A DNA stretch of 64,000 bases from a virus (IMGVR_UViG_2690316068_000002); one strand, 5' to 3'; counted from the first letter of the stretch, positions 13,548 through 45,581 are shown. Made by a program: numbers and translations. Notes: generated by a model from the letters alone, not told the origin.

Positions 13548-14804
13548 CTATCTAGAACCACCAAGAATAACACGGTTTTTGACTGGATACCTACGATGTA
13601 CTGGATAGCCCAATGCGTCTGCACTATGCTCAATGCCACCTGTCTTATCCATATCTCGTGTTCCAGGCTTGTAGATGACTTTTTCCAATGAATCAATCAA
13701 ATGCTTGCACTTCGGATCGATATACAGCCGGATATCTCCAGATGCGGTCATCAGCATTCGGTTAACAGCATTAACACGATCCGCAATTGGCGGGTGCTTT
13801 TTCGAATAATCGACACGTAAGAATCCCTTCTCTTTGAATATGTCGACGTCAGACTCCCCGCGAGCATGTTGGCGATAAGCACCTGCCGGATCTGGAAATA
13901 CCGTTATCTGTGATTTCCAGCGCCAGAAGCGTCTCTCAAGCTCATCACAAACCTCTGCCGTGTTAGAGGAAAAGAGCACCAATTCATCAATTGCCCATAG
14001 CTCACCATTTGGCTGAGGTTGCAAAATTACTGAAGACATCGGGTCAATGTTGAAGTCCTGCCCTACCCATATAGGCAACCGAGGGTTGAACTGAAGCGGT
14101 TTTACATGCACGTTACGATCGAACGGGTAGTAAACGCGCCCGGACATGTTCTCAAAGCTCGCCAGGTACTCCTGAGCGAACGATTTCGGGTCCATATCGT
14201 TCTTAGCAGCTTCAATTTCCGCCGTAGGCACAAACGGAGAATCAGCAGTTACAAACTGCCAGCTCTTCCACTGTCCCTTTCTTTGCAGCTCTACGTTCTG
14301 GCCTATAGTCCACAGTTTGTGAAATTCCGAGAAGCCTTTTGGCGTACCAATGATCAGTGCACCGCCGCGTGTCGATGAAAGAGTAGGTCGTAACACCTTG
14401 TACCAAGTGTCAGCCTTCATATCCTGAAATTCATCAAGCACTACAAAATGCAACGCTACGCCGCGCAGAGTGTCAGGCTTATCAGCACCTTTGAGGGCGA
14501 TCTCCGAACCGTTCTTCAACACGATTGTCATCGTGGTGTCGTTCTTTTTCCTAACCCACTTACGAGGCAGAACTTCCTGTAGATCGTCCCACAAAATCTG
14601 GCGAGCCATCTGGTAAGTAGGAGCGACATACCAGACCCTTTGCTTTTTTTCCTTTGCCGCCGCACGAATAATAGTGGAGATCGACAACCGGGATTTTCCC
14701 CAGCGTCGACCAGCACAAACAACTTTAAATCGATGCGGAGACTGGAAGACTTTCATCTGTCCAGAATGCAGTTGCACAAGACTGAGCGAGGACGGGATTG
14801 CCAT
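13548..14804 (-). CDS. Terminase large subunit
   Basis: 418 aa; Walker A (CAGRRWGKS), Walker B (HFVVLDEFQD), C-terminal nuclease-type acidic motifs (WVGQDFNIDP). Confidence 0.85.
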   Translation of the reverse strand: MAIPSSLSLVQLHSGQMKVFQSPHRFKVVCAGRRWGKSRLSISTIIRAAAKEKKQRVWYVAPTYQMARQILWDDLQEVLPRKWVRKKNDTTMTIVLKNGSEIALKGADKPDTLRGVALHFVVLDEFQDMKADTWYKVLRPTLSSTRGGALIIGTPKGFSEFHKLWTIGQNVELQRKGQWKSWQFVTADSPFVPTAEIEAAKNDMDPKSFAQEYLASFENMSGRVYYPFDRNVHVKPLQFNPRLPIWVGQDFNIDPMSSVILQPQPNGELWAIDELVLFSSNTAEVCDELERRFWRWKSQITVFPDPAGAYRQHARGESDVDIFKEKGFLRVDYSKKHPPIADRVNAVNRMLMTASGDIRLYIDPKCKHLIDSLEKVIYKPGTRDMDKTGGIEHSADALGYPVHRRYPVKNRVILGGSR

Positions 14805-15436
14805 TATTCGTCCTCCCCTTCACTTCCATCATCTGTCGCGTCAAATTCGCTTAGAGCTTCTTCTTCCAACGTCTCAAGCAATTCGTCATCGATGATTTCA
14901 GGCTCGTCGTCTTCCTGACGTAATTTCGCCACCTGGGAAGGCGTAAGCTCACCAAATACCAGGTTCGGAATTTCTTCCTCGTCATTTTCCGCATGATCCA
15001 TGCCCAATGCTTTGGACGAAACTTCAAAGCATTTTGCAAGGGTATTACTGGCTCTCTGTAAGCTCTTGAGAGAATCCTCAATCGCCCCTAAAGGCTTACC
15101 CTCACGTTTGGCCGTAGTGACTTCGACCATCACCATCTGCCCCAACGCATACGCCCAGCCGTCATAACGTGTACGACGTTCTTCTATCTTTTCCGCACGG
15201 GCTTTAGCGCGAAGCTCTGCGTCAGATTTAAGAGACTCACGAACCATCTTCCCAACAGAGTCCGCGCCTTTCTCTAATCCTCGCTTTTTGAAATGTCTGG
15301 AGAGTGTTTCACGACGAATGCCGTACTCTTCCTCCAGCTTTGAGAGTGTATATTCGCCTGACGTCCATTTGGCTTCAGCTTCGGCCCACTCCGCTGGTGT
15401 CAGGCGAGTTTTTACCTCGTCTTTTTCGACCGTCAT
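14804..15436 (-). CDS. Terminase small subunit (putative)
   Basis: 210 aa immediately upstream of and abutting terL; N-terminal HTH-like region, acidic C-terminal tail. Confidence 0.5.
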   Translation of the reverse strand: MTVEKDEVKTRLTPAEWAEAEAKWTSGEYTLSKLEEEYGIRRETLSRHFKKRGLEKGADSVGKMVRESLKSDAELRAKARAEKIEERRTRYDGWAYALGQMVMVEVTTAKREGKPLGAIEDSLKSLQRASNTLAKCFEVSSKALGMDHAENDEEEIPNLVFGELTPSQVAKLRQEDDEPEIIDDELLETLEEEALSEFDATDDGSEGEDE

Positions 15437-15550
15437 AGATCCCTCTAAAACACACAGAGCGCGTCCATGCGCTCTAAAACAACTTGTTTACTGCATCTGC
15501 TAACCAACTTGTTTTCTGGGTTGTTTAATTAGGTCTGGCATGTCTTACGA

Positions 15551-21972: not shown

Positions 21973-21979
21973 TGATATG

Positions 21980-22501
21980 ACGACGAAAGACATCACCTAC
22001 GGTGTGCCAGCAGAAGTCTGGCCGCGAGATTACACTAACGTTGAAAAACTACTGATGTTCTGGCGCAGAGAACAAATTCCTGTAAGGGTCACTCTCGAAG
22101 ATGGCCAGGCGTTTTGCATGTACGTTTATGGCCTCATGCCATCTCGTAACAAAGTTGACCTTTGCCCAGCCCCTTTTGACAAAGAAAATCGTATAAGGCT
22201 CCCACTTGAACGCATTAGTACAATTGAATCAGGTGTGGTTGACAGTATCGCTCACGATTTCAAAGGTCGACTAACAGTTCACCCTGATTATGTCGATAAT
22301 CGGCCATCACGCCGCGATTTTTTTGCAATTTGCAACCAAGCCTACAAAGCAAACAAATCTATAAGGGTGTACATGGCGGATGGCCGTGAAATTGAGGGGG
22401 TGTCAGCAGGCGCAGATGCTTGTCAGGTTACACTACGTGTCGAGAACGGTAGAAAAATAGTTGTTTTGTTCGATTGGGTTGAACGAATTTTGCCTTTTTG
22501 A
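21980..22501 (+). CDS. Hypothetical protein
   Basis: ORF-track 21938-22501 overlaps the lipoprotein gene; an internal Met (MTTKDITYG) just after its stop is the likelier start. Confidence 0.45.
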   Translation, partial: TTKDITYGVPAEVWPRDYTNVEKLLMFWRREQIPVRVTLEDGQAFCMYVYGLMPSRNKVDLCPAPFDKENRIRLPLERISTIESGVVDSIAHDFKGRLTVHPDYVDNRPSRRDFFAICNQAYKANKSIRVYMADGREIEGVSAGADACQVTLRVENGRKIVVLFDWVERILPF

Positions 22502-23096: not shown

Positions 23097-23747
23097 ATGG
23101 CTAACATTATCATTTCTAAAAAGTCCATCATTGAAGCTGCATCTATTGTATCCGACGAGCTGCGCGAAAAAGCAGATCTGGCAACTCAAACATATAACGA
23201 ACATTATAAAAATGGTACGCACACTAAAGCAGACAAAGCAAATATGCAAGCTGCGACCACTAAACTTGCTTACTTCATCAACAACGTTGTAAACGCTGTA
23301 GAAGACGAAAAATTATGCTCTGTTTTCTACTATGCGATTAAAGCAAGCAAACAAGCGCCAGAAGTATTTTTCCGTGATGCAATGACTAATAGTTATTCTC
23401 TGGAAAAACTGGTTTATCTGGTTAAATCCATTAAAGCTGGTAAATGCGTTTATTCCGTCGCTGATATGTCTGGATCTCGTGTATTCGCTTTAATCGATAT
23501 GATTAACGACGAGATCGACACGTTCACTAATGGCGCTGTTTTCGATTTAATGAATGAAGCTAAAAAAGCGTGCGAAATTAAATTGGACGCTGGCTATACT
23601 CAAGCCAACCAGTTGATCAATCTTTGCGAACGTCTTGGACTTGTTGAAAAAGTCAAAGGAGCTGGGAGCGCGAAAGCTGGTACTCAGCAATATCGCTTCG
23701 TTAAAAATGATTTCTACAATTATTTAGCTGATGCTTTTAAAGCGTAA
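23097..23747 (+). CDS. Hypothetical protein
   Basis: 216 aa ORF after an AT-rich promoter-like region. Confidence 0.5.
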   Translation: MANIIISKKSIIEAASIVSDELREKADLATQTYNEHYKNGTHTKADKANMQAATTKLAYFINNVVNAVEDEKLCSVFYYAIKASKQAPEVFFRDAMTNSYSLEKLVYLVKSIKAGKCVYSVADMSGSRVFALIDMINDEIDTFTNGAVFDLMNEAKKACEIKLDAGYTQANQLINLCERLGLVEKVKGAGSAKAGTQQYRFVKNDFYNYLADAFKA

Positions 23748-24019: not shown

Positions 24020-24250
24020 ATGTTTGTTCTTATCGCTGACGTTAACGTCCACAATGAATATTATGTTAATCGCATCGCTGGGATCGCTGGTTACGCTGGG
24101 CGCGCAGTCGAGCTTATAGATGAAACGACGCGCAAAATTGACTTATTGAGCGACCAGGAGCGAAAAAAAGCAGACGTGAACGACGCTGATATTTTTTTAA
24201 TGTTAAAAGCGTTTGTAGAAATGGGATTTAAAATCAGTTTACACAAATAA
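24020..24250 (+). CDS. Hypothetical protein
   Basis: 76 aa ORF followed directly by a hairpin plus T-run. Confidence 0.45.
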   Translation: MFVLIADVNVHNEYYVNRIAGIAGYAGRAVELIDETTRKIDLLSDQERKKADVNDADIFLMLKAFVEMGFKISLHK

Positions 24251-24254
24251 AATC

Positions 24255-24280
24255 GAGCGCCCACTATGGGCGCTTTTTTC
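24255..24280 (+). terminator. Rho-independent terminator (hairpin + T-run)
   Basis: agcgccca-cta-tgggcgct followed by tttttt. Confidence 0.6.
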
Positions 24281-24699
24281 GTTTCCAATACTCCCACCAT
24301 AACGCGCCAATGATGGCGCGTTTTTATTGTCTTTAACTCACTCCAACAACATAAAAATAAGCGCCAAAATAACGCCATAGACGCGCTTTTACATCCTTAC
24401 CAGTACATACCCATTACTTAACACATTAACGCGCTTAAAACGCGTTATATTGCGTTATGGTGTATGGTTAATCATTGGCTTTTATTCTTGCTATGTGATC
24501 CGCGTTTATTTGTCGGTGCGGATCGGCATTTTGTTTTGTTCTGTATCCGCTCGCGTATTATGTGCGCGTGATTTTTCACATAATCACACCACTTAATCAC
24601 GTATGTGATTATGCTACGAAAGAAATCTGGATGTCTCAGGTGACGAAAGTCATCATAATTTTCCCCGCTCACCTGTCCGACAACCGCTGGTTGGATTCC

Positions 24700-24860
24700 A
24701 CCAGCTTCCCGATGTTTTTTCTACATAAAGGCGAATGCAGCCGTTTCCCGAAAAAATCCTGGCCGTTTCCCGTCGGCTCATGAATACGTTCCTCGCCGTT
24801 TCTGAAAATTTCCCTGCGGCAGCTGGTGGCTATAGAGAAAGGGCCGTTTCTGGCCCTCTT
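24700..24860. repeat. Iteron-like direct repeat cluster 1 (GCCGTTTCCCGAAA-type)
   Basis: Five to six imperfect direct copies of ccgtttccc/ccgtttctg spaced ~20-35 bp, plus ccctgcggc...tatagagaaa shared with 27126-27146. Confidence 0.6.
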
Positions 24861-24865
24861 CTCAG

Positions 24866-25348
24866 TTACACGCCATCAAGGATGTGGATGCGGTTGCTTG
24901 CGTATACATTCAGCATAAAGTTAGCGCAAAACAGTTTCCATGTATCAACGCCAGCGGTATACGTAATGTTTTTGCATTTAATCGCATTGTTGGCGATCCG
25001 CATCCCCTGCGATACTGCTTCATCGTCGGAAAATTTGAACGACGATTGAGTTTTAATCCAGACAGAAATCTGCGTAGCGAACTCAATCAGCTTGGACTGG
25101 CAGAATCGCCCGGAGCGTACCGGGAAGACGAACGTTCCGAATCCAGAATTTACCACATATGCTTTCTCAAATACCCGCGAGTAACGACGATTGCCAATGA
25201 TGTCGCGTGCAATAATGCATTTTTCTTGTGCTGACAGTTCTACCGTCTCATTGTCGCGCCATGCACCAAGTACTCGTTTTTCAATGTCAGAGAACGTTAC
25301 AGCGATATTGCCATGTGCGGGTGCGTTTACAGTAGCGATAAAATTCAT
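24866..25348 (-). CDS. Hypothetical protein
   Basis: 160 aa ORF; palindromic motif-1 immediately upstream (25366-25402). Confidence 0.5.
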   Translation of the reverse strand: MNFIATVNAPAHGNIAVTFSDIEKRVLGAWRDNETVELSAQEKCIIARDIIGNRRYSRVFEKAYVVNSGFGTFVFPVRSGRFCQSKLIEFATQISVWIKTQSSFKFSDDEAVSQGMRIANNAIKCKNITYTAGVDTWKLFCANFMLNVYASNRIHILDGV

Positions 25349-25698
25349 GATTGATTCCTTATCGTAAATAACAAATTGTTTTCTTGTTGGTGTTAATTAT
25401 CGTTGTACGAATAAGGCGTCAAAGTGGAAAGTTGCGGTAGCCGGACGGGAACAGGTGGGTTTGTCGGTTGCCTGGAGGTAAGAGGTTGGTGTTTTTAGCC
25501 TGCGGGAAACAGGATGGTCATTTAAGGCCACCAATGCTGATGGCCTTAATAATTATCGACCTATTACGCTAAGGATCTTTTCCTCAACTGATTTGTTGTT
25601 GCGACTAAACTGCCTTGCGTATCTGATGACAGAAGAGGCGTTTTGCTTTCTGACCATCTCGGCTCTTTCCTTCAGGCGTTTCTTGAAATCGCCCATAT

Positions 25699-26115
25699 TT
25701 ACCACCAGGCGCAGAAGGTCAGTCTGTTATTGTGAAAGTCGTGGTTCCTGATCAGGTCTTCCACAAGTTTTTTCAGCTTATCCACGTCATGCCAGTAACC
25801 TTCATCGTACTCCTGACTGCCGAAGAAAAAACCTTCCCGGGTAGGCAAGTACTCTTCGCAATTACTTTCGTTTATGTGCATCAAATGAGCCTTCAGAAAA
25901 CAAATGTCATTCATCGTTAATTCTAAAAGCTCACAATTTTCGACTTCACCTACGTTGCGCTCCATCCACCCAACGAGCGCATTGAACTTACGGAAGTAAG
26001 CAACCTGCTTTCTGGATGCCTCGTTATTCAGATCGTTTTTAGGCTGCGTCTCGATATAGATATCAAGTCCCATGATGGTTTCCTTATTAAGTTGCTTCAG
26101 TGAAATCATTTTCAC
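25699..26115 (-). CDS. Hypothetical protein
   Basis: 138 aa ORF (true start may be internal MGLDIY); motif-1 copy upstream (26128-26150). Confidence 0.45.
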   Translation of the reverse strand: MKMISLKQLNKETIMGLDIYIETQPKNDLNNEASRKQVAYFRKFNALVGWMERNVGEVENCELLELTMNDICFLKAHLMHINESNCEEYLPTREGFFFGSQEYDEGYWHDVDKLKKLVEDLIRNHDFHNNRLTFCAWW

Positions 26116-26190
26116 AAATCAGATAAGGCAGAAAACAAATTGTTATCGGGCATAAGAAAATGGCGCGGTTTACGCGCCATTCAAAGAGGA

Positions 26191-26652
26191 TTAAGCGAAT
26201 ACGCTTTCAGGGATTAAGGTGTCGGCAGGAATGCCAGAGGTAATGCGCAGACCGTACTGGCCAATCCAGGTGGTGCTGGTGTTCAGGCTGGAGGCGAATA
26301 CGGTGTTAACCATATTCATCATGGTTTCAAACACCTCTTCGTCAACCTGGCGGAAGTAGTTCTCGATTTTCAGCAGCAGCGGGTCAGTTGCATCGAGAAT
26401 GGACTGGTATTGAGTCGCGTACTCGCCGCCGGAGGCATCACCTTTACGCACGATCGTACTGGCCTGGACTTCGGCACCAGTTTCGGTGTTGTACGTAACA
26501 ACGGTGATTTTTGCCACATTCTTACCTTCGGCGGTTTCAGAGGCATAGTAAACATCAACTGTCAGTTTTTCGCGTTTAACGGTCATTTCACTCTCCGTAG
26601 TGTATTGGTTATTTTTATATTCTATGATCGTAAGTATGTACTTACAATACAA
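26191..26652 (-). CDS. Hypothetical protein
   Basis: 153 aa ORF-track call; likely start is the internal Met (MTVKREKL, ~26586) since the extension runs into a terminator hairpin. Confidence 0.45.
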   Translation of the reverse strand: MYCKYILTIIEYKNNQYTTESEMTVKREKLTVDVYYASETAEGKNVAKITVVTYNTETGAEVQASTIVRKGDASGGEYATQYQSILDATDPLLLKIENYFRQVDEEVFETMMNMVNTVFASSLNTSTTWIGQYGLRITSGIPADTLIPESVFA

Positions 26653-26678
26653 AAAAGCCCCGTAAGGATGGCGGGGCT
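26650..26678 (-). terminator. Rho-independent terminator
   Basis: agccccg-taaggatgg-cggggct hairpin with T-run on the minus strand, downstream of the gene ending at 26713. Confidence 0.55.
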
Positions 26679-26712
26679 GTCGTACTGTCGACTAATTACC
26701 ACTTGCACATTA

Positions 26713-27054
26713 TCAGGCTATTGCCATCACTGATGCTCTCTGAATTTCTTGCTGGGCCACGCGGTTAACTTCCATCAAGGCCAGTTCGAGCTGATGTTCC
26801 GGCCACATTCTTTGAAATGCCACCCATCCTTTTCCACGCTGGCGACGAACATTCATTACATAACGAGTAAAGGTGTTTTTATCGAAAGACACCGCTGTTT
26901 CACGGAACAGACGAATAGAGGTTCCATTGGCAACGATGTCCAGCAAAGTTAATTGAGCAACCAGCGCAGGCTTCTCTTTTCTCTTCTGGTCTTTGTCCAG
27001 ACCAAGAACCAATGATTTTTTCATTACAACTCCGTAAACAACTTGTTTTCTCAA
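26713..27054 (-). CDS. Hypothetical basic protein
   Basis: 113 aa ORF-track call; probable start at the internal MKKSLVLG; motif-1 upstream (27045-27068). Confidence 0.45.
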   Translation of the reverse strand: MRKQVVYGVVMKKSLVLGLDKDQKRKEKPALVAQLTLLDIVANGTSIRLFRETAVSFDKNTFTRYVMNVRRQRGKGWVAFQRMWPEHQLELALMEVNRVAQQEIQRASVMAIA

Positions 27055-27177
27055 TGGCGTAAATAATACCAGTAAGAAAACGGCTACAAAGCATATTGAT
27101 CAGGTGCATGAGCGATATGCAGGTTCTTCCCTGCGGCTATAGAGAAATTAAGCCAGCAATGCTGGCTTTGGTTGAGG

Positions 27178-27525
27178 TTACGCGAATACCTCAAGAAATT
27201 CCTGAACGTCCCAATGCTGGACAAGGTGAAGATAGACCTTAGAAATCACGTCATTCTCGCTATCGCATGTGAAGTAGTACTTCTGGCTGCGGTTGTATGT
27301 GTCTACACAAAATTCGCTCATATCCATAAAGTCAGCATCTTCACCCATGTCGCAAATCATCAAAGCAGGTGCGTCATCACGAGTCATCAGCTCAAGCACC
27401 CACCGCGAATTGATCAGAGTGGAAGACCAACCTTCTAACTCATAAAACTGATCAAACTCTTTTTGAGTTAATTTCTTGATTTGGTTGATGTCGATATTTG
27501 CAAACATAAAGCAATCCTTAAACAA
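27178..27525 (-). CDS. Hypothetical acidic protein
   Basis: 115 aa ORF; motif-1 immediately upstream (27527-27565). Confidence 0.5.
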   Translation of the reverse strand: MFKDCFMFANIDINQIKKLTQKEFDQFYELEGWSSTLINSRWVLELMTRDDAPALMICDMGEDADFMDMSEFCVDTYNRSQKYYFTCDSENDVISKVYLHLVQHWDVQEFLEVFA

Positions 27526-27864
27526 GATGTTTTCTTAATGGTGTTATTATCGCAATAACGCACAGGCGAAAAAGGATTTTATTCCGGTGAATGTGGTTTT
27601 GGCAGTGAGTTTTCAGGTTCAGTACCGAGTACACTTTTTACATTATTCTGATTTAGTGGCCGAAGGTGGCTGGTGGGCAGAATAATCCTCTCCCCGAAAA
27701 CCTACTGAAATCGATTGTGACCCGTTGGCTGTCTGGCACAATTACGCTGTAGCTGGGCATTCAGAGGGAGTCCAACGGTAAGTTAGTCCGCCTGCACGTG
27801 AGCGCCTCTCTTCTTCCCGCACATTACAGGTGTGTAGCCGCAACTCTCCCTCTCGCTATACCGG

Positions 27865-28010
27865 TACGCCGCCGTTCCTGAACCGGCATCGATCCTTTTC
27901 CCGAAATCCATACAGGCAACTCGACCGTTTCCCTGAAAATCCCCAGCCGTTCCCCGAAGGCAACCCAGCCATTTCTGTAGCGGGATGCAACCTTTTCCCT
28001 GTATGGACCG
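27865..28010. repeat. Iteron-like direct repeat cluster 2 (CCGTTTCCCTGAAA-type)
   Basis: Six imperfect direct copies (gccgttcctgaa, ccttttcccgaaa, accgtttccctgaaaa, gccgttccccgaa, gccatttctg, accttttccctg) at ~24-30 bp spacing; same repeat family as 24700-24860. Confidence 0.65.
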
Positions 28011-28039
28011 AAGGCTGACCGTAGGGGTGTTACGGGGGA

Positions 28040-28920
28040 TAAAATCAGGAGTTGAATAAATACGAAAAAGGAGGCGACACCCCTCCTTCCCTCCCCACTT
28101 ATACATACCTGGCTTCTTCGCTATACATGTTGTGTTTTCTTCGTGTTTTATCTGTCTCAACCTCTCTATAGGCGTTAATGCTCACTCCTTCCAGAACGTT
28201 CTATACGGCGACTATTTCTGTTGGTGAATTGGGTGTGTTGTTTTCTCTGTCGGTGTATGTGGTTTCGTTCGTTTTGCGGTGGTTCTTCTAGGGGGTGTTC
28301 TCGTCGTTTTGGTGATTGTTCTTCTCCATGTATGGAGTAATGGCAGGTGGGCGATTCCTTTCGTTATTGTGTTTGAGTTGTTTGTCTGGAGTGTGTGAAA
28401 GGCTTTTGTAGTTATTCGTGTATTGGGTAATGGCGTTTCCCGTGATTGTTATGCTTCGAGTCTTTTGGGATTGAGAGAATCCTTGCGGTTACAGGCTTCG
28501 TTGGGGTTTCAGTGATTCTGGTGTTTCTTCGCTGTTTGGGGAATGGCGTGTCGTGGGTATCGCGCGTATGAATGTTTTCGGATTGCCTGTGAAAGTTAGG
28601 TTGGTTGTCCGGTAGCCTGGGAAGAAGAGGTGGGTCTTTTCGGTAGCCTGCCATAAAGAGGTTGGTTGTTTTGGGTAATGGCATATGTGTTATTTAGTTG
28701 TTTTGTTATGCCTGAAAATAAGTTGTTTATATGGTTGTGTAACGCAACGGGAGCGATTTTGAGCGTGTGTTTTTGTTGGTAGTGTGTTGGGTCGTCTGTG
28801 GTGAAAATTGGACGCTGTGGCGCTGTCTGCTGCGTAGAATTACGGGTATAAGAAGTGATGTGTGAATACGTCAATTTTTTAGACCAAATCGGGTGAAAGC
28901 GTTGACGTTTCGTTGATCTG
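28040..28920. other. ORF-free, strongly GT-skewed region with loose ~100-bp periodic motifs
   Basis: About 75% G+T on the plus strand over ~0.9 kb; recurring GG(G/A)TAATGGC and GGTAGCCTG...AGAGGTnGGT motifs; no credible ORF on either strand. Confidence 0.6.
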
Positions 28921-29081
28921 TTATTTAGTTGTTTTCTTATTGGTATAAACAACGTTAACCTATTGATATTTAAAGGTGTGATTGCAGGTATGGAAGAAGA
29001 GTAGTGGCGATCAACGGATTCTTATAGAAAAGAATCAAATTGTGACCGCCATTATCAACTGATTGATTAAGCTAATTACAC

Positions 29082-30311
29082 TCAAACATCCCCGTTCTTA
29101 ATCCACTGCCTGACTTGCTCGTCTTGTGCGACTTCTTTCTCATGTTTGGCAATATACAAGTCTGGCAATAGGGGTGGAGCGAATTCAGGCTCTGTCGCAC
29201 GCCACTTTTCATATGCGTCACGCATGGATTTCTCAACATTCCAATGCTCCAACTCTTGGTATTCAATCGGCCAGTTATCCTGCAATCTCTTCACTGCATT
29301 AGCCAGGTCGTATCGGAAGTAAGGATTAAGACCAATGAAATTACCAGCCAGCATGTCATCAACCTCCTTCACTCTGGCAATCTTAGAAAACTTACCAATA
29401 GCAATGTTGAGGTCCCAATCTGACACGAACAACAAAAGTGCTGCAAATGCCAGAAACTTAGCTTCCCCGTATGCTCTGTCGCTAACCGTTTTTGTCTGAA
29501 ACTCAATGTAATTGCCCATCACAAAACTAGTAAGCTTATAGGTCTTACTTATCTCGTCCTCCAAATGCGATGGATCGAGAATTGTGCGGTCACGATTATT
29601 GTTTATGTGTTCTAAGATTACAGCAATGTCTCTATGTGAGACTGAAATTTCACGCAATTGCTGGAGAGTCTTGATGTGAACTCTTAGCACCTCTTTGTCA
29701 ATCGCACGCTTCCAAGAAAAACCAGGCACAGTAACCTGAATGGGCGCGAAAGGTAGAATATCAGGAGTTGTCCATGCTAGATATGCATCACGTAACCCAC
29801 TAATATAATAAAGCCAGTCTAAATGCTCGCTTTCTAACCATATTTCAAATGTGGAATCCTTTCGCTTATTGAAGAACCATTCCCTCATCTGCCACATTTT
29901 TTCTTGAGTAAATATCCCTTCCTGTATGCCGGCACAGACCAGCTTTCGTATTACCTGCGAATACTTTGTTCGATCTTTTGTGAATGAGACAAGGTGCTGC
30001 TTCACCTCAGATGTTAGTCTATCTCCATAGAAATCACATGATGGATGATGGCCTTGACCATCTTCACCGGTAAATCTGAAATGCGCCTTCTTGTGATAGC
30101 CACCATTCCTAGTGGCTCTAACGAACGAACCACCTCCAACTTTGCAAATGGGGCAGATGATATCGTCACGGGCAATAGCATGAACCGAGCTGTCATCTAA
30201 ATTCTTTAGCGCCAAGTACTGCTCAGGATCGACTTCTTTTTGTAACGATTTTGAAAAAGCGGTATCAGTCATTCCAAGCTCCGAGCAAGGGGTTATTTGT
30301 TCAATTATCAT
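29082..30311 (-). CDS. Hypothetical protein with N-terminal Cys/His zinc-ribbon-like motif
   Basis: 409 aa; CPICK...(28 aa)...HHPSCDF cluster near N-terminus; no other recognisable domain. Confidence 0.55.
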   Translation of the reverse strand: MIIEQITPCSELGMTDTAFSKSLQKEVDPEQYLALKNLDDSSVHAIARDDIICPICKVGGGSFVRATRNGGYHKKAHFRFTGEDGQGHHPSCDFYGDRLTSEVKQHLVSFTKDRTKYSQVIRKLVCAGIQEGIFTQEKMWQMREWFFNKRKDSTFEIWLESEHLDWLYYISGLRDAYLAWTTPDILPFAPIQVTVPGFSWKRAIDKEVLRVHIKTLQQLREISVSHRDIAVILEHINNNRDRTILDPSHLEDEISKTYKLTSFVMGNYIEFQTKTVSDRAYGEAKFLAFAALLLFVSDWDLNIAIGKFSKIARVKEVDDMLAGNFIGLNPYFRYDLANAVKRLQDNWPIEYQELEHWNVEKSMRDAYEKWRATEPEFAPPLLPDLYIAKHEKEVAQDEQVRQWIKNGDV

Positions 30312-30751: not shown

Positions 30752-30903
30752 TCCGAAACAATTTGTTTTCTTATGTGGCTTATTATCTCAATCAACAAAA
30801 GGTAGAAAACAAATTATTTTAGGGCTTGTGTAAATCAGGAGGGATTGTGTCTATATGAAAATGCCCAGCGTGTTGCCGGGCATTGTGAAGAATGGTTGTT
30901 TAG

Positions 30904-32937
30904 TTACTTAACTTGGTGGCCTGGTTTAGCACCAGCATCCGGGCTTAACAGGAAGATATCTTTTCCGCCAGGGCCAGCAGCCATCACCATGCCTTCAGAG
31001 ATACCGAAGCGCATTTTACGCGGAGCCAGGTTAGCCACCATAATTGTGTGACGACCAATCAGTGCCTGTGGGTCTGGATAAGCAGAACGGATGCCTGAGA
31101 AGACATTACGCTTTTCACCACCGAGATCCAGTGTCAGGCGCAACAGTTTGTCAGAACCTTCAACAAACTCCGCGTTTTCAATCAGCGCCACACGCAGGTC
31201 AACTTTGGCGAAGTCGTCAAAGGTGATGGTTTCCTGAATCGGGTCGTCAGCCAGTGGGCCAGTTACCGGTGCGGCTGTGGCTTTCACTTCTTCTTTGGAT
31301 GCTTCCACCAGTGCTTCCACCTGTTTCATATCGATACGGTTATACAGTGCCTTGAACGGATTCACTTTATGGCCCAGCAGCGGTTGCTGGATACCATCCC
31401 AGGTCAGTTCTGTATTCAGGAATGCTTCTGCACGTTCAGTCAGTTTCGGCAGTACCGGTTTCAGGTACGTCATCAGCACGCGGAACAGGTTAATGCCCAT
31501 AGAGCAAATCGCCTGCAGATCGGCATCGCGCCCTTCCTGCTTCGCCACCACCCACGGAGCCTGTTCATCGACATAGCGGTTAGCCAGGTCAGCCAATGCC
31601 ATGATTTCACGGATAGCTTTACCAAATTCGCGGCTTTCCCATGCTTCGCCAATCACTTCAGCGGCATCAGTAAAGGTTTTGTACAGTTGCGGGTCAGCCA
31701 GTTCGCTTGCCAGCACGCCGTCAAAACGCTTGTTGATAAAGCCTGCATTACGGGAGGCCAGGTTAACCACTTTGTTCACGATATCGGCATTCACGCGCTG
31801 AACGAAATCCTCCAGGTTGAGATCGATATCATCAATGCGCGAAGAGAGTTTCGCAGTGTAGTAGTAACGCAGGCTGTCGGCGTCAAAATGATTCAGCCAG
31901 GTGCTGGCTTTAATAAAGGTGCCGCGAGACTTGGACATCTTCGCGCCGTTCACCGTCACATAGCCATGAACAAACAGGTTGGTCGGCTTGCGGAAGTTGC
32001 TGCCTTCCAGCATGGCAGGCCAGAACAGGCTGTGGAAGTAAACAATATCTTTACCGATGAAGTGGTACAGCTCGGCGGTGGAGTCTTTCTTCCAGTATTC
32101 ATCGAAGCTGGTGGTATCGCCGCGCTTGTCGCACAGATTCTTGAAGGAACCCATGTAGCCAATCGGCGCGTCCAGCCAGACGTAGAAATATTTGCCCGGC
32201 GCGTTCGGAATTTCAAAACCGAAGTAAGGCGCATCTCGGGAGATATCCCACTGTTGCAGGCCGGATTCAAACCATTCCTGCATTTTGTTCGCCACCTGCT
32301 CCTGCAACGCGCCGCTGCGGGTCCATGCCTGCAACATTTCGCTGAAAGAAGGCAGATCAAAGAAGAAGTGTTCGGAATCACGCATTACCGGGGTAGCGCC
32401 AGAAACCACCGATTTCGGCTCGATCAATTCAGTCGGGCTATATGTTGCGCCGCAGACTTCACAGTTATCGCCGTATTGATCTGGCGCTTTACATTTCGGG
32501 CAGGTGCCTTTTACAAAACGATCCGGCAGGAACATGCCTTTTTCCGGGTCGTACAACTGAGAGATAGTGCGGTTTTTAATAAAACCGTTCTCTTTCAGGC
32601 GAGTATAGATAAGCTCAGACAACTGACGGTTCTCTTCGCTGTGCGTCGAGTGATAGTTGTCATAGCTGATGTTAAAGCCTGCGAAATCAGTCTGGTGTTC
32701 CTGACTCATTTCGCCAATCATCTGCTCCGGTGTGATACCAAGCTGCTGTGCTTTCAGCATGATCGGCGTACCGTGGGCATCGTCGGCACAGATGAAATTA
32801 ACCTCGTGGCCGCGCATTCGCTGGTAACGAACCCAGACATCAGCCTGGATGTGCTCCAGCATATGGCCGAGGTGGATTGAGCCGTTAGCGTACGGCAGCG
32901 CGCACGTCACCAGAATTTTCTTCGCGACTTGGGTCAT
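30904..32937 (-). CDS. metG: Methionyl-tRNA synthetase
   Basis: 677-aa product from [29 protein letters not shown] (HIGH motif), KMSKS motif, C-terminal tRNA-binding domain; near-identical to enterobacterial MetG from memory. ORF-track upstream extension (to 33066) rejected. Confidence 0.95.
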
Positions 32938-33094
32938 AGTAGGCATTACTTCTTTGTAGTGAAAAGGGGCTTGATAGTAACAAAATGGCCTTATGTCTGC
33001 CATGTGATAACAGCATTTCTCATAAATGATTAAATGTCGTAGCTGGAGTACACTACAAGGCGACAATTGCGCAAATTAAAATAAAGGAGACGGG

Positions 33095-34195
33095 ATGAGC
33101 GAGTCCAAATCGCCGGATGCCCTGAGAGCAATGGTAGCCGGTACGCTGGCTAATTTTCAGCACCCAACCCTGAAACACAACCTGACTACGCTTAAAGCGT
33201 TACACCATGTTGCGTTGATGGATGACACACTGCATGTCGAACTAATCATGCCTTTCGTGTGGAATAAGCCTTTTGAAGACCTGAAAGAGCAATGTAATGG
33301 TGATCTGCTCCGTATCACTGGCGCAAAGGCTATTGACTGGAAGCTGTCGTACAACATTGCCACGCTTAAGCGCGTCAAAAACCAACCAGGTATTAATGGC
33401 GTTAAGAACATTATCGCCGTCAGCTCAGGCAAGGGCGGCGTGGGTAAATCCTCCACGGCGGTAAACCTGGCACTGGCGTTGGCTGCTGAAGGTGCGAAAG
33501 TTGGTATTTTGGATGCCGATATCTATGGTCCATCAATTCCAACCATGCTGGGCGCGGAAAACCAACGTCCAACCTCACCTGACGGTACTCACATGGCACC
33601 TATCATGTCTCATGGCCTGGCAACCAACTCTATTGGTTATCTGGTCACCGACGACAATGCAATGGTGTGGCGTGGACCGATGGCCAGCAAGGCGCTGATG
33701 CAGATGTTGCAGGAAACTCTATGGCCTGATCTGGACTATCTCGTTCTCGATATGCCGCCGGGCACTGGTGATATTCAGTTGACGCTGGCGCAGAACATTC
33801 CTGTAACTGGTGCGGTTGTGGTAACTACGCCGCAAGACATCGCGCTGATCGATGCGAAGAAAGGCATTGTGATGTTCGAAAAAGTCGAAGTGCCGGTACT
33901 GGGTATCGTCGAAAACATGAGTGTGCATATTTGCAGTAACTGCGGTCATCACGAGCCAATTTTTGGCACCGGTGGCGCACAGAAACTGGCCGAGAAATAC
34001 AACACGCAGTTGTTAGGCCAAATGCCACTTCATATCTCTCTTCGTGAAGATCTGGATAACGGAACACCAACCGTTATTAGTCGTCCAGATAGCGAATTTA
34101 CGGCTATTTATCGTGACCTCGCAGATCGCGTTGCTGCCCAAATGTATTGGCAAGGTGAAGTAATACCTGGCGAAATCGCATTCCGCGCAGTGTGA
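33095..34195 (+). CDS. apbC: Fe-S cluster carrier ATPase ApbC/Mrp
   Basis: 366 aa; P-loop SSGKGGVGKSS, CxxC motif (CSNCGHH), divergent from metG as in enterobacterial chromosomes. Confidence 0.9.
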   Translation: MSESKSPDALRAMVAGTLANFQHPTLKHNLTTLKALHHVALMDDTLHVELIMPFVWNKPFEDLKEQCNGDLLRITGAKAIDWKLSYNIATLKRVKNQPGINGVKNIIAVSSGKGGVGKSSTAVNLALALAAEGAKVGILDADIYGPSIPTMLGAENQRPTSPDGTHMAPIMSHGLATNSIGYLVTDDNAMVWRGPMASKALMQMLQETLWPDLDYLVLDMPPGTGDIQLTLAQNIPVTGAVVVTTPQDIALIDAKKGIVMFEKVEVPVLGIVENMSVHICSNCGHHEPIFGTGGAQKLAEKYNTQLLGQMPLHISLREDLDNGTPTVISRPDSEFTAIYRDLADRVAAQMYWQGEVIPGEIAFRAV

Positions 34196-45488: not shown

Positions 45489-45581
45489 GTGCTTTCCTTT
45501 TGTTATTTGTTAAAACAAGTTGTTTTCTAGTTACATGAATTGCTTACGAAAAGACGGTCAATGCATATGCACTAACAACCG

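What the first reader, a model, noticed from the sequence alone, without database searches (positions are those of the whole stretch)
24700..28010. Two clusters of iteron-like CCGTTTCCC(T)GAAA direct repeats bracketing a block of five small genes
Cluster 1 (24700-24860, 5-6 copies) and cluster 2 (27865-28010, 6 copies) share the same short direct repeat at 24-30 bp spacing and a second shared motif (ccctgcggc...tatagagaaa at 24812 and 27126). They flank minus-strand genes 24866-27525. This resembles iteron-controlled plasmid replicons such as the P1 incC/incA layout, or a multi-site operator for one of the enclosed proteins, and would fit a phage-plasmid lifestyle.
Basis: partly seen in the sequence, partly recalled or inferred. 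Interest (0 to 1): 0.6.

Follow-up and report, generated by a model that had tools for sequence, protein, structure and literature searches.

The report
Paired phage-backbone DNA-binding repeat arrays
The two repeat clusters are real, deeply conserved arrays of protein-binding sites in the backbone of an SSU5-type phage-plasmid, but they are not the plasmid's replication iterons, which lie elsewhere, and what they do has not been described.

Summary
The window is an SSU5-type phage-plasmid, 99.7% identical to E. coli plasmid CP057251.1. The repeats exist. Array A1 (24741, 24763, 24796, plus a half-site at 24809) and array A2 (27872 to 27991, six sites) share the core CCGTTTCCC. All sites are on the + strand, spaced 22, 31 or 33 bp. 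These are the only such clusters in the 110-kb element. The spacing is kept in pHCM2, SSU5, Enterobacter and more than 60 viral contigs while the spacers diverge.

The P1-like replicon reading fails. The true Rep3-type initiator lies outside the window. It has tandem DnaA boxes, a GATC-rich stretch and 5+11 unrelated iterons (GTATGCTGTCAGCGGT). pHCM2 uses a different RepA with different iterons but has the same arrays.

The fourth "copy" of cluster 1 and the "tatagagaaa" motif belong to intrinsic terminators of minus-strand genes.

The best candidate binder is a 216-aa winged-helix protein (23097-23747). It co-occurs with the arrays down to 31% identity, and its recognition helix is its most conserved part.

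The function is inferred only. I favour a phage-mode origin or enhancer pair (about 0.3), next to a conserved 850-bp GT-skewed non-coding region. The rivals are a centromere for an orphan ParA/RHH pair, or looping operators.

The parts
24738..24820 (+). Array A1. Three phased sites (24741, 24763, 24796; core CCGTTTCCC/CCGTTTCT) plus the half-site TTTCCCTGCGGC at 24809-24820. Spacing 22 and 33 bp.
   Evidence: Nearly invariant in pMT1, pHCM2, Klebsiella and Enterobacter, in SSU5 and in more than 50 viral contigs.
24701..24713 (+). Degenerate upstream copy (CAGCTTCCCGATG). It overlaps a minus-strand Chi at 24698-24705.
   Evidence: A weak match only.
24841..24856 (-). Intrinsic terminator hairpin of gene g1. 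The U-tract runs through 24830-24840 (tatagagaaa on the + strand).
   Evidence: -17.7 kcal/mol, z -3.85. Compensatory GGGCC/GGCCC versus GGGGC/GCCCC in relatives.
27869..28006 (+). Array A2. Six phased sites at 27872, 27894, 27925, 27947, 27969 and 27991. Spacing 22, 31, 22, 22, 22 bp.
   Evidence: The spacing is identical in pHCM2, Enterobacter and SSU5 while the spacers diverge. Copy number varies by whole units, from 6 down to 3.
28028..28106 (.). Conserved block next to A2: GTTACGGGGGATAAAA, TTGAATAAATACG, a hairpin at 28065-28091, then CCCACTTATAC.
   Evidence: Invariant columns. Hairpin with 3 compensatory pairs. It looks like a terminator on the minus strand in E. coli but not in pHCM2. 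The block recurs in relatives as distant as L120.
28110..28950 (.). About 850 bp of non-coding DNA, extremely G+T-rich on the + strand (GC skew up to +0.54, AT skew down to -0.62). It holds GTAATGGC modules about 100 nt apart, GGTAGCC..AGGTGGGT units, and two promoter-like elements pointing towards A2.
   Evidence: No CDS is called by PGAP. The composition is conserved in pHCM2, Klebsiella, Enterobacter, L017, L018, L118 and L120.
23097..23747 (+). p216, the candidate array-binding protein: an N-terminal helical bundle plus a C-terminal winged helix.
24866..25348 (-). g1, 160 aa, basic (pI 9.2), always immediately next to A1. No known fold.
   Evidence: Not detectable in the most distant array-bearing relatives.
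25553..25696 (-). 47-aa basic ORF (pI 11), corresponding to CYRAN_109, which is reported as expressed in the lysogen.
   Evidence: PMC9928086.
25699..26073 (-). g2, 124 aa, acidic. A variable member of the cassette.
26191..26586 (-). g3, 131 aa, acidic.
26713..27024 (-). g4, 103 aa, basic (pI 10.5). Together with g1 it is the constant content between the arrays in close relatives.
27178..27507 (-). g5, 109 aa, very acidic (pI 4.2).
27126..27168 (-). Terminator of g5: hairpin at 27150-27168, with its tail forming the 'ccctgcggctatagagaaa' second motif.

Best explanation
Shown. A1 and A2 are two arrays of binding sites on one face of the helix, with an asymmetric core CCGTTTCCC. They act at the DNA level, belong to the conserved phage backbone of SSU5-type phage-plasmids, and are independent of whichever plasmid replicon the element carries.

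Inferred, moderately supported. The protein that binds them is the 216-aa winged-helix protein encoded at 23097-23747. It would oligomerise through its N-terminal helical bundle along sites two or three helical turns apart.

Inferred, my preferred mechanism. The two arrays mark the phage's own, lytic-mode replication origin region.
- Protein-loaded A2 and A1 would pair across the 1.5-4 kb cassette. This resembles P4 ori and crr, or SPP1 oriL and oriR.
- Initiation would take place in the unusual flanking DNA, chiefly the 850-bp GT-skewed region beside A2.
- That region carries phage-type promoters pointing at A2. Its transcript would be a G-poor, unstructured RNA, suited to an R-loop-primed or recombination-primed start.
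- The phage's own DnaB-like helicase, primase, DnaE, gp32-like SSB, RNase H and UvsX/UvsY-like proteins would then take over.

For the part marked 'shown' I would give about 0.9. For the whole statement including the origin function I give about 0.3.
For: Arrays real and clustered.

Spacing of 22/31/22/22/22 and 22/33-34 bp is conserved while the spacers diverge. This argues for a protein bound on one face of the DNA. RNAalifold finds no conserved structure in the array.

Independence from the plasmid replicon: IncFIB RepA with its own iterons in pHCM2, against a Rep3_N Rep with other iterons in E. coli, yet the same arrays in both. This fits the published picture of conserved phage genes and variable plasmid genes in this group (PMC7969092, title and abstract).

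p216 as the binder:
- winged-helix model;
- the recognition helix is the most conserved segment, and p216 is the only gene of those tested that is still detectable next to arrays in relatives with 31-36% identity (L116, L118, L120);
- the TTTCCC core persists in those same relatives.

Origin reading:
- the element encodes a full replisome of its own and T4-like recombination proteins, so it needs a backbone-encoded origin;
- apart from the Rep iterons, my repeat scan and the motif matrix found no other iteron-like array in 110 kb;
- A2 is always joined to a conserved block and to the GT-skewed, module-bearing non-coding region;
- that region has the same promoter-type element as the phage genes, pointing towards A2;
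- Chi sites cluster locally: 7 of 33 in pHCM2 lie within 2.5 kb here;
- array copy number changes by whole units.
Against: - No AT-rich unwinding element (maximum 73% AT in 60 bp, none adjacent), no DnaA-box pair and no IHF site lies next to either array.
- In the E. coli lineage a terminator-like hairpin stands between the GT-skewed region and A2. That would keep transcripts out of the array.
- A1 also sits between convergent terminators.
- Distant relatives keep only 1-2 recognisable sites per array (L015). That suits a regulator better than an origin.
- Both arrays survive in a 62-kb derivative that has lost all virion genes. This is equally or better explained by a role in plasmid maintenance.
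- No known initiator family was detected in p216.
- Binding by p216 has not been tested, and g1 and g4 (both basic) remain candidates in close relatives.
- No experimental data on this region were found.
Confidence: 0.3

Rival explanations
1. Centromere. The arrays are the partition sites for the element's orphan type Ib partition pair: a small ParA of 222 aa and a 117-aa protein that looks like a ribbon-helix-helix protein with a basic N-terminal tail. That operon lies about 39 kb away (CP057251.1 30907-31934). The loaded arrays would be moved apart by the ParA ATPase during plasmid maintenance.
For: - The ParA assignment is solid (NF041546, E 2e-33; phrog_164).
- The partner has an RHH-like sequence pattern.
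- No repeat array lies upstream of that operon, only the generic phage promoter motif, so its centromere must be elsewhere.
- Apart from the Rep iterons, no other obvious intergenic repeat array turned up in my scan of the genome, though that scan would miss repeats shorter than 8 bp.
- Both arrays lie in gaps shielded by terminators, as centromeres often do.
- A 62-kb derivative with no virion genes keeps the arrays and the ParA/RHH pair.
- pMT1 acquired a P1-type ParAB and has lost ParA/RHH and A2.
- From my own knowledge: N15 has dispersed centromeres, and pB171 par2 has two centromere arrays flanking its operon.
Against: - From my own knowledge, known type Ib centromeres lie next to the par operon and double as its operator. 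Here they would be 39 kb away.
- pMT1 keeps A1 without ParA/RHH.
- The pMT1 deletion is about 32 kb and also removes helicase, primase and many other genes, so the joint loss says little.
- The 9-bp asymmetric core with a variable right half looks more like a single winged-helix footprint than RHH sub-repeats. This is my inference.
- This reading does not explain the link to p216 or to the GT-skewed region.
Confidence: 0.2
2. Looping operator clusters. The arrays are two operator clusters for a backbone regulator (p216 or a cassette protein). Paired by a DNA loop, they would silence or insulate the variable accessory-gene cassette, or control leftward promoters just downstream of each array. 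This would be comparable to lambda OL and OR, which bracket cI-rex.
For: - Two clusters lie 1.5-4.2 kb apart and bracket small genes, one of which (CYRAN_109) is expressed in the lysogen.
- Distant lineages manage with 1-2 sites per end.
- Both arrays have the same orientation relative to minus-strand transcription, and each lies upstream of promoter-like sites: 24679-24652, 24637-24608 and 27605-27576.
- The cassette content is variable, includes acidic proteins, and a toxin-antitoxin pair is inserted there in one relative. It behaves like an accessory hotspot.
Against: - The sites do not overlap any convincing promoter, and promoter-like hits in the region are fewer than in shuffles (6 against 10).
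- Each cassette gene already has its own copy of the genome-wide promoter/operator motif.
- The sites are asymmetric direct repeats, not palindromes.
- This reading does not explain the conserved 850-bp skewed region attached to A2.
Confidence: 0.2
3. One reading: an iteron-controlled plasmid replicon laid out like P1 incC-repA-incA, with one of the enclosed proteins acting as the initiator.
For: Direct repeats at about 22-bp spacing, in two clusters flanking genes. The element is a phage-plasmid.
Against: - The complete canonical replicon is elsewhere and uses different iterons.
- The arrays are identical across lineages with different Rep proteins.
- No Rep-like family is found in the enclosed proteins, and g1 matches no known fold.
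- There are no DnaA boxes or unwinding element adjacent.
- pMT1 replicates without A2 and without most of the block.
Confidence: 0.03
4. RNA-level element. The repeats would act in a transcript, for example as UUUCGGGAAACGG motifs in a leader or 3' UTR bound by the neighbouring FljA/Hfq-like protein.
For: An FljA-like protein with an Hfq-like region is encoded at 21977-22501. Some copies can form short hairpins, which I read directly from the sequence.
Against: - There is no conserved structure or covariation in the arrays (covariation term -0.44) or to the left of A1 (+2.48).
- The conserved spacings are whole numbers of DNA helical turns.
- The arrays lie beyond terminators on both sides.
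- Rfam finds nothing.
Confidence: 0.03

Closest known systems
P1 oriR (incC iterons - repA - incA iterons) and F or Rep_3-type iteron replicons
   Same: Direct repeats on one strand at about 22-bp spacing, in two clusters flanking genes, within a phage-plasmid.
   Different: No Rep gene lies between or beside the arrays. No DnaA boxes or AT/GATC-rich unwinding element are adjacent. The repeat sequence does not change when the Rep type changes. A complete replicon of exactly this P1-like layout exists elsewhere in the same element.
Satellite phage P4 ori and crr (from my own knowledge)
   Same: Two clusters of one short repeat, a few kb apart with genes in between, presumed to be bound by one protein and to cooperate at a distance.
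   Different: P4's binder is the alpha primase-helicase, and its ori has an AT-rich stretch. Here the candidate binder is a small winged-helix protein and no AT-rich stretch is adjacent. Replication from this region has not been shown.
Bacillus phage SPP1 oriL and oriR (from my own knowledge)
   Same: A phage with its own DnaB-type helicase, and two separated non-coding or genic sites carrying the same initiator-binding repeats.
   Different: In SPP1 the initiator gene contains oriL and lies in the helicase operon. Here the helicase operon is about 40 kb away, and no initiator family was recognised.
Lambda OL/OR operator clusters with CI-mediated looping (from my own knowledge)
   Same: Two clusters of three or more sites at about 22-24 bp spacing, 2-4 kb apart, bracketing genes of which at least one is expressed in the lysogen.
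   Different: Lambda operators are near-palindromes that overlap strong divergent promoters, and the repressor gene lies between them. Here the sites are asymmetric, all in one orientation, not on promoters, and the candidate binder is encoded outside the bracket.
Repeat-array centromeres: pB171 parC1/parC2, R1 parC, TubR-tubC, and the dispersed sopC sites of N15 (from my own knowledge)
   Same: Phased direct repeats in two clusters. TubR is a winged-helix protein with an ArsR-like fold that coats repeat arrays. Dispersed centromeres are known in a phage-plasmid. An orphan ParA/RHH pair is present in this element.
   Different: The arrays are 39 kb from the par operon and do not regulate it. 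There is no TubZ. A1 persists in pMT1, which lacks the small ParA/RHH pair.

Membership tests
Iteron-controlled theta replicon (P1 RepA / F RepE / Rep_3 type) | An initiator (Rep) gene adjacent to or between the iteron clusters | tested here: not met
   No Rep, HTH or RHH family in the five enclosed proteins or their neighbours in Pfam, PHROGs or NCBIfam. g1 matches no known fold. The Rep3_N initiator is at CP057251.1 1-1095, outside the window.
Iteron-controlled theta replicon (P1 RepA / F RepE / Rep_3 type) | The iteron sequence is specific to its Rep, so it changes when the Rep changes | tested here: not met
   E. coli lineage: Rep3_N with GTATGCTGTCAGCGGT. pHCM2: RepA with CTACTCTCTACAGTGGTTA. 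The CCGTTTCCC arrays are identical in both.
Iteron-controlled theta replicon (P1 RepA / F RepE / Rep_3 type) | DnaA box(es) and an AT-rich or GATC-rich unwinding element beside the iterons | tested here: not met
   Only one relaxed DnaA box (24572), about 170 bp from A1. No 60-bp window above 73% AT is adjacent. No IHF site. The true origin has TTATTCACATTATCCACA plus GATC-rich repeats.
Iteron-controlled theta replicon (P1 RepA / F RepE / Rep_3 type) | Direct repeats of about 17-22 bp periodicity on one strand | tested here: met
   Spacing 22/31/33 bp, all on the + strand.
Iteron-controlled theta replicon (P1 RepA / F RepE / Rep_3 type) | The fragment replicates autonomously | not testable with these tools
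   Needs cloning of 24.2-28.1 kb into a suicide vector.
Type Ib partition centromere (ParA + RHH ParB) | An array of short direct repeats bound by the centromere-binding protein | tested here: inconclusive
   The arrays are present. Binding by the 117-aa RHH-like protein cannot be tested here.
Type Ib partition centromere (ParA + RHH ParB) | The centromere lies next to the par operon and serves as its operator | tested here: not met
   The par operon is at CP057251.1 30907-31934. Its upstream region carries only the generic phage promoter motif and no CCGTTTCCC sites. The arrays are about 39 kb away.
Type Ib partition centromere (ParA + RHH ParB) | Co-occurrence of centromere and par genes | tested here: inconclusive
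   Both are present in E. coli, pHCM2 and the 62-kb E. albertii derivative. pMT1 lacks ParA/RHH and A2 but keeps A1.
P4-type ori/crr or SPP1-type dual origin | Two separated clusters of the same initiator-binding repeat | tested here: met
   A1 and A2 share the core and lie 1.5-4.2 kb apart in all relatives.
P4-type ori/crr or SPP1-type dual origin | The repeats are bound by the phage initiator, and replication starts there | not testable with these tools
   No initiator family was recognised. Marker-frequency or 2D-gel data are needed.
Lambda-type operator clusters | Operators overlap the regulated promoters | tested here: not met
   No promoter-like site overlaps either array. The nearest are 60-270 bp away, and the region has fewer promoter-like hits than shuffles.
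Known RNA families | A match to an Rfam covariance model, or conserved structure with covariation | tested here: not met
   Rfam gathering threshold: 0 hits. At the E-value threshold there is one sub-threshold hit, in the terminators at 24263-24329. RNAalifold gives no support.

The most novel reading that the evidence does not exclude
The arrays, the winged-helix protein p216 and the adjoining 850-bp GT/AC-skewed modular region together form a previously undescribed kind of phage replication origin. Phased winged-helix nucleoprotein arrays would sit beside a zone transcribed into a G-poor, unstructured RNA, or exposed as RecA/UvsX-preferred GT-rich single strand next to a local Chi cluster. 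Starts would be primed by R-loops or recombination rather than by a DnaA/AT-rich unwinding element. This origin would be conserved across the SSU5/pHCM2/pMT1/pKpn superfamily, independently of the interchangeable plasmid replicon.
Probability: 0.2. Interest if true: 0.7.

Novelty: new variant of a known kind. Interest (0 to 1): 0.5.

Why it matters
SSU5-type phage-plasmids include pHCM2 of Salmonella Typhi, pMT1 of Yersinia pestis and widespread Klebsiella, Enterobacter and E. coli plasmids. The DNA search found 734 PLSDB records.

Their plasmid replicons are known and interchangeable. In the literature I could search, nothing describes their lytic origin, their centromere, or the large conserved non-coding region studied here.

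This analysis does three things:
- It removes a tempting mis-annotation of a 'second iteron replicon'.
- It locates the true origin.
- It defines a compact, testable unit: p216, arrays A1 and A2, and the skewed region.

That unit is the best candidate for the backbone's own cis-acting replication or maintenance site. Knowing what it does would help in engineering or curing these elements, and in understanding how a phage backbone can swap plasmid replicons freely.

Tried and rejected
- Tandem Repeats Finder found nothing relevant, because the units are interspersed with spacers.
- Rfam at gathering and E-value thresholds gave no family.
- RNAalifold on A2 and on the hairpin-rich region left of A1 gave no convincing conserved structure. 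Only the 28065-28091 hairpin and the g1 terminator show covariation.
- Pfam, PHROGs, NCBIfam and PDB sequence or profile searches of g1, g4 and p216 gave no informative family.
- Host-factor sites (DnaA, IHF, AT-rich element) next to the arrays are absent.
- A pac or cos role was rejected as unlikely by position: the arrays lie about 9-13 kb from the small and large terminase genes (14804-15436 and 13548-14804). No end data were available.
- A replication fork trap was rejected because both arrays have the same polarity.
- Chi orientation across the genome shows no polarity switch, only a local cluster.
- A search of viral contigs for the array pattern outside SSU5-type elements gave only chance hits. 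One example is a Pro-Phe-Pro coding run inside a P2 gpA-like gene.
- Literature searches found no description of these repeats or of an SSU5 lytic origin.
- The p396 protein (29082-30272) was rejected as the binder, because it is replaced by other genes in Enterobacter and Klebsiella relatives that keep full arrays.

Full report
WHAT THE WINDOW IS. The 4.6-kb region matches Escherichia phage-plasmids of the SSU5 group at 94-98% (CMS-2020a, Cyrano/pLF82, PhiR41_1). It matches E. coli plasmid CP057251.1 at 99.7%. Window coordinate = record coordinate minus 45667, and the PGAP gene coordinates in locus L007 coincide with window coordinates. 734 PLSDB plasmids share part of the region, including pHCM2 of S. 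Typhi, pMT1 of Y. pestis, and Klebsiella and Enterobacter plasmids.

THE OBSERVATION. Reading the sequence, together with pattern and matrix scans, confirms two clusters of a direct repeat with core CCGTTTCCC, often followed by (T)GAAA.
- A1 has sites at 24741, 24763 and 24796, a half-site TTTCCCTGCGGC at 24809, and a degenerate copy near 24701.
- A2 has six sites at 27872, 27894, 27925, 27947, 27969 and 27991.
- All sites are on the + strand.
- A matrix built only from relatives' sites still finds 3 and 4 hits within 150 bp. In 300 shuffles no cluster exceeded 2.
- Across the whole 110.6-kb plasmid, strong sites occur only in these two arrays plus one singleton. The same holds for pHCM2.
- Spacing is 22 and 33 bp in A1, and 22, 31, 22, 22, 22 bp in A2. 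These are whole numbers of helical turns.

- The "copy" at 24844 is the stem-loop of the intrinsic terminator of the gene 24866-25348 (-17.7 kcal/mol, z -3.85). A compensatory stem change in relatives supports this.
- The second shared motif (ccctgcggc...tatagagaaa at 24812 and 27126) is the U-tract tail of that terminator and of the terminator after gene 27178-27507. Only the TTCCCTGCGGC part of it is conserved outside the E. coli lineage.

CONSERVATION. A1 is almost invariant in pMT1, pHCM2, Klebsiella and Enterobacter. In A2 the cores and the exact 22/31/22/22/22 spacing are kept in pHCM2, Enterobacter and SSU5 while the spacers diverge.
- A scan of IMG/VR returned 80 loci. About 60 of them carry A1 (2-3 sites) and/or A2 (3-6 sites), all in SSU5-type context.
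- The remaining pattern hits are chance matches, for example a Pro-Phe-Pro coding run in a P2 gpA-like gene.
- Copy number changes by whole units. PhiR41_1, for instance, has five A2 sites.
- RNAalifold finds no conserved structure in the arrays.
- The pattern of conserved cores, free spacers and helical phasing is what a protein bound on one face of duplex DNA would leave.

WHY THIS IS NOT THE PLASMID REPLICON.
- The enclosed proteins have no Rep, HTH or RHH family.
- No AT-rich element, DnaA-box pair or IHF site adjoins either array.
- The real replicon of this lineage lies at CP057251.1 110.4-1.65 kb, just beyond the right end of the window. In order, it has two tandem DnaA boxes (TTATTCACATTATCCACA), GATC-rich repeats, five iterons, a 364-aa Rep with a Rep3_N WH1 domain (named "RepB family" by PGAP in a sister plasmid), and eleven more iterons GTATGCTGTCAGCGGT.
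- pHCM2 instead has an IncFIB RepA flanked by at least 20 copies of CTACTCTCTACAGTGGTTA.
- The CCGTTTCCC arrays are the same in both lineages, so they belong to the conserved phage backbone and not to the exchangeable plasmid module (compare PMC7969092).
- pMT1 has lost A2 and most of the block through an IS1541-associated deletion of about 32 kb, and it is still a plasmid.

WHO BINDS THE ARRAYS.
- g1 (160 aa, basic) is always next to A1, but its confident model (pLDDT 87) matches no known fold.
- g4 (103 aa, basic) has no detectable relatives of known function.
- In close relatives the constant content between the arrays is g4 plus g1 (L048 and L060, arrays 1.5 kb apart).
- The p216 family is tiny and confined to these elements.
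- In the most distant members (31-36% identity; L116, L118, L120) g1 and g4 are no longer detectable. Yet p216 is still followed, 0.4-0.7 kb downstream, by an array of TTTCCC-type repeats. A second array, the conserved block and the GT-skewed region are present in both distant loci whose contig reaches that far, L118 and L120.
- The invariant residues of the family concentrate in the recognition helix: T168, Q169, Q172.
- This is correlative evidence, but it makes p216 the best candidate binder.

THE SURROUNDINGS.
- A2 is followed by a conserved block (GTTACGGGGGATAAAA, TTGAATAAATACG, a hairpin with three compensatory pairs, CCCACTTATAC).
- After that comes an 850-bp region without genes, extremely G+T-rich on the + strand. 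This composition is conserved in all relatives that keep A2.
- The skewed region contains GTAATGGC modules about 100 nt apart (four in 350 bp), GGTAGCC..AGGTGGGT units, and two copies of the promoter-type element that precedes the cassette genes. Both copies point towards A2.
- That element, AACAANTTGTTTTCT, occurs 20 times in the window against 1.1 expected. It lies just upstream of many minus-strand genes and also upstream of the ParA-like operon.
- Chi sites are ten-fold enriched in the window and cluster locally in the cassette.
- The element encodes its own DnaE, DnaB-like helicase, primase, gp32-like SSB, ligase, RNase H, SbcCD, a recombinase and a UvsY-like protein.
- It also encodes an orphan small ParA with an RHH-like partner that has no repeat array nearby.

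INTERPRETATION. What is shown: two backbone-specific, phased DNA-binding arrays that are independent of the plasmid Rep. What is inferred: p216 is the binder. For function I favour a phage-mode origin or enhancer pair, at about 0.3. My reasons:
- a phage with its own replisome needs a backbone origin;
- apart from the Rep iterons, these are the only iteron-like arrays I found in it;
- A2 is joined to an unusual, conserved, promoter-bearing, strand-skewed region next to a Chi cluster.

Against this reading: there is no unwinding element or DnaA or IHF site; terminator-like hairpins shield the arrays; distant relatives keep few sites; and both arrays survive in a 62-kb derivative with no virion genes. 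The centromere reading (about 0.2) and the looping-operator reading (about 0.2) remain live. The P1-like plasmid replicon reading (about 0.03) does not.

LITERATURE. I found no description of these repeats or of an SSU5-type lytic origin in the searchable library.

Noticed in passing
window 28110-28950: An 850-bp stretch with no genes and extreme strand asymmetry: G+T up to about 74% on the + strand, GC skew up to +0.54, AT skew down to -0.62. The composition is conserved across the whole SSU5 superfamily. It has GTAATGGC modules about 100 nt apart and inward-pointing promoter-like elements. If transcribed on the minus strand it would give a G-poor, unstructured RNA. Function unknown.
   Followed up: partly
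window 15474-15517, 20460, 25366-25384, 26130-26148, 27033-27051, 27521-27535, 30757-30818, 40240, 44785, 45510-45528, 55735: The near-palindromic motif AACAANTTGTTTTCT occurs 20 times against 1.1 expected. It usually lies 10-60 bp upstream of start codons of minus-strand genes, and also upstream of the ParA-like operon in the sister plasmid. It looks like a genome-wide phage promoter or repressor operator, in the manner of the scattered C1 operators of P1.
   Followed up: partly
window-wide; locally 24698-24705(-), 24822-24829(+), 27669-27676(+): Chi (GCTGGTGG) occurs 15 times in 64 kb against 1.5 expected. Sites cluster in the array-flanked cassette: 7 of pHCM2's 33 Chi sites lie within 2.5 kb there, and L060 has 4 within 1.3 kb. 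No genome-wide switch in orientation was seen.
   Followed up: partly
window 25436-25460, 28611-28635, 28642-28666: A further repeat family, GGTAGCC-N(9-10)-AGGT(G/T)GGT (3 against 0 expected). It is found upstream of g1 and in the GT-skewed region. Three to four tandem units occur in relatives (L060, L118).
   Followed up: no
window 21977-22501 (+): A homologue of FljA, the post-transcriptional repressor of phase-1 flagellin (PF03614, E 7.5e-85), with a weak Hfq-like match. It is conserved in the block upstream of p216 throughout the family. Its target in a phage-plasmid is unknown.
   Followed up: no
window 24400-24690: A non-coding stretch left of A1 that is rich in hairpins. It holds TAACGCG/CGCGTTA palindromes, a CAGGTGA...TCACCTG hairpin with compensatory changes in pHCM2, three TAATCAC repeats and one relaxed DnaA box at 24572. 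RNAalifold gave no convincing overall structure.
   Followed up: partly
CP057251.1 110400-110652 and 1-1650 (just beyond the window's right end); loci L008, L009: The true plasmid origin: two tandem DnaA boxes, GATC-rich repeats, 5 iterons, a Rep3_N initiator gene that is missing from the PLSDB gene table for this record, then 11 iterons. pHCM2 has a different RepA and different iterons at the same syntenic place, which indicates a replicon swap.
   Followed up: yes
CP057251.1 30907-31934 (locus L009, outside the window): An orphan type Ib partition pair: a small ParA of 222 aa, and a 117-aa protein with a basic tail and an RHH-like pattern. It heads the helicase-primase operon. No centromere-like repeats lie nearby.
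   Followed up: partly
window 30904-34195: The phage-plasmid carries full-length host-like metG (methionyl-tRNA synthetase) and apbC/mrp genes next to the region studied. They are also retained in the 62-kb E. albertii derivative.
   Followed up: no
locus L113 (CP043239.1, E. albertii, 62 kb): A reduced derivative with no capsid, tail or terminase genes. It keeps Rep, ParA/RHH, helicase, primase, both arrays and the GT-skewed region, and has a RelE/ParE toxin-antitoxin pair inserted inside the array-flanked cassette.
   Followed up: partly
[not shown]
   Followed up: yes
window 24263-24329 (-): A sub-threshold Rfam hit to the Hfq-regulated sRNA Hrs1 (28.6 bits against a gathering score of 56.4). 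It overlaps the bidirectional terminators after the gene 24020-24250, and is probably just terminator hairpins.
   Followed up: no
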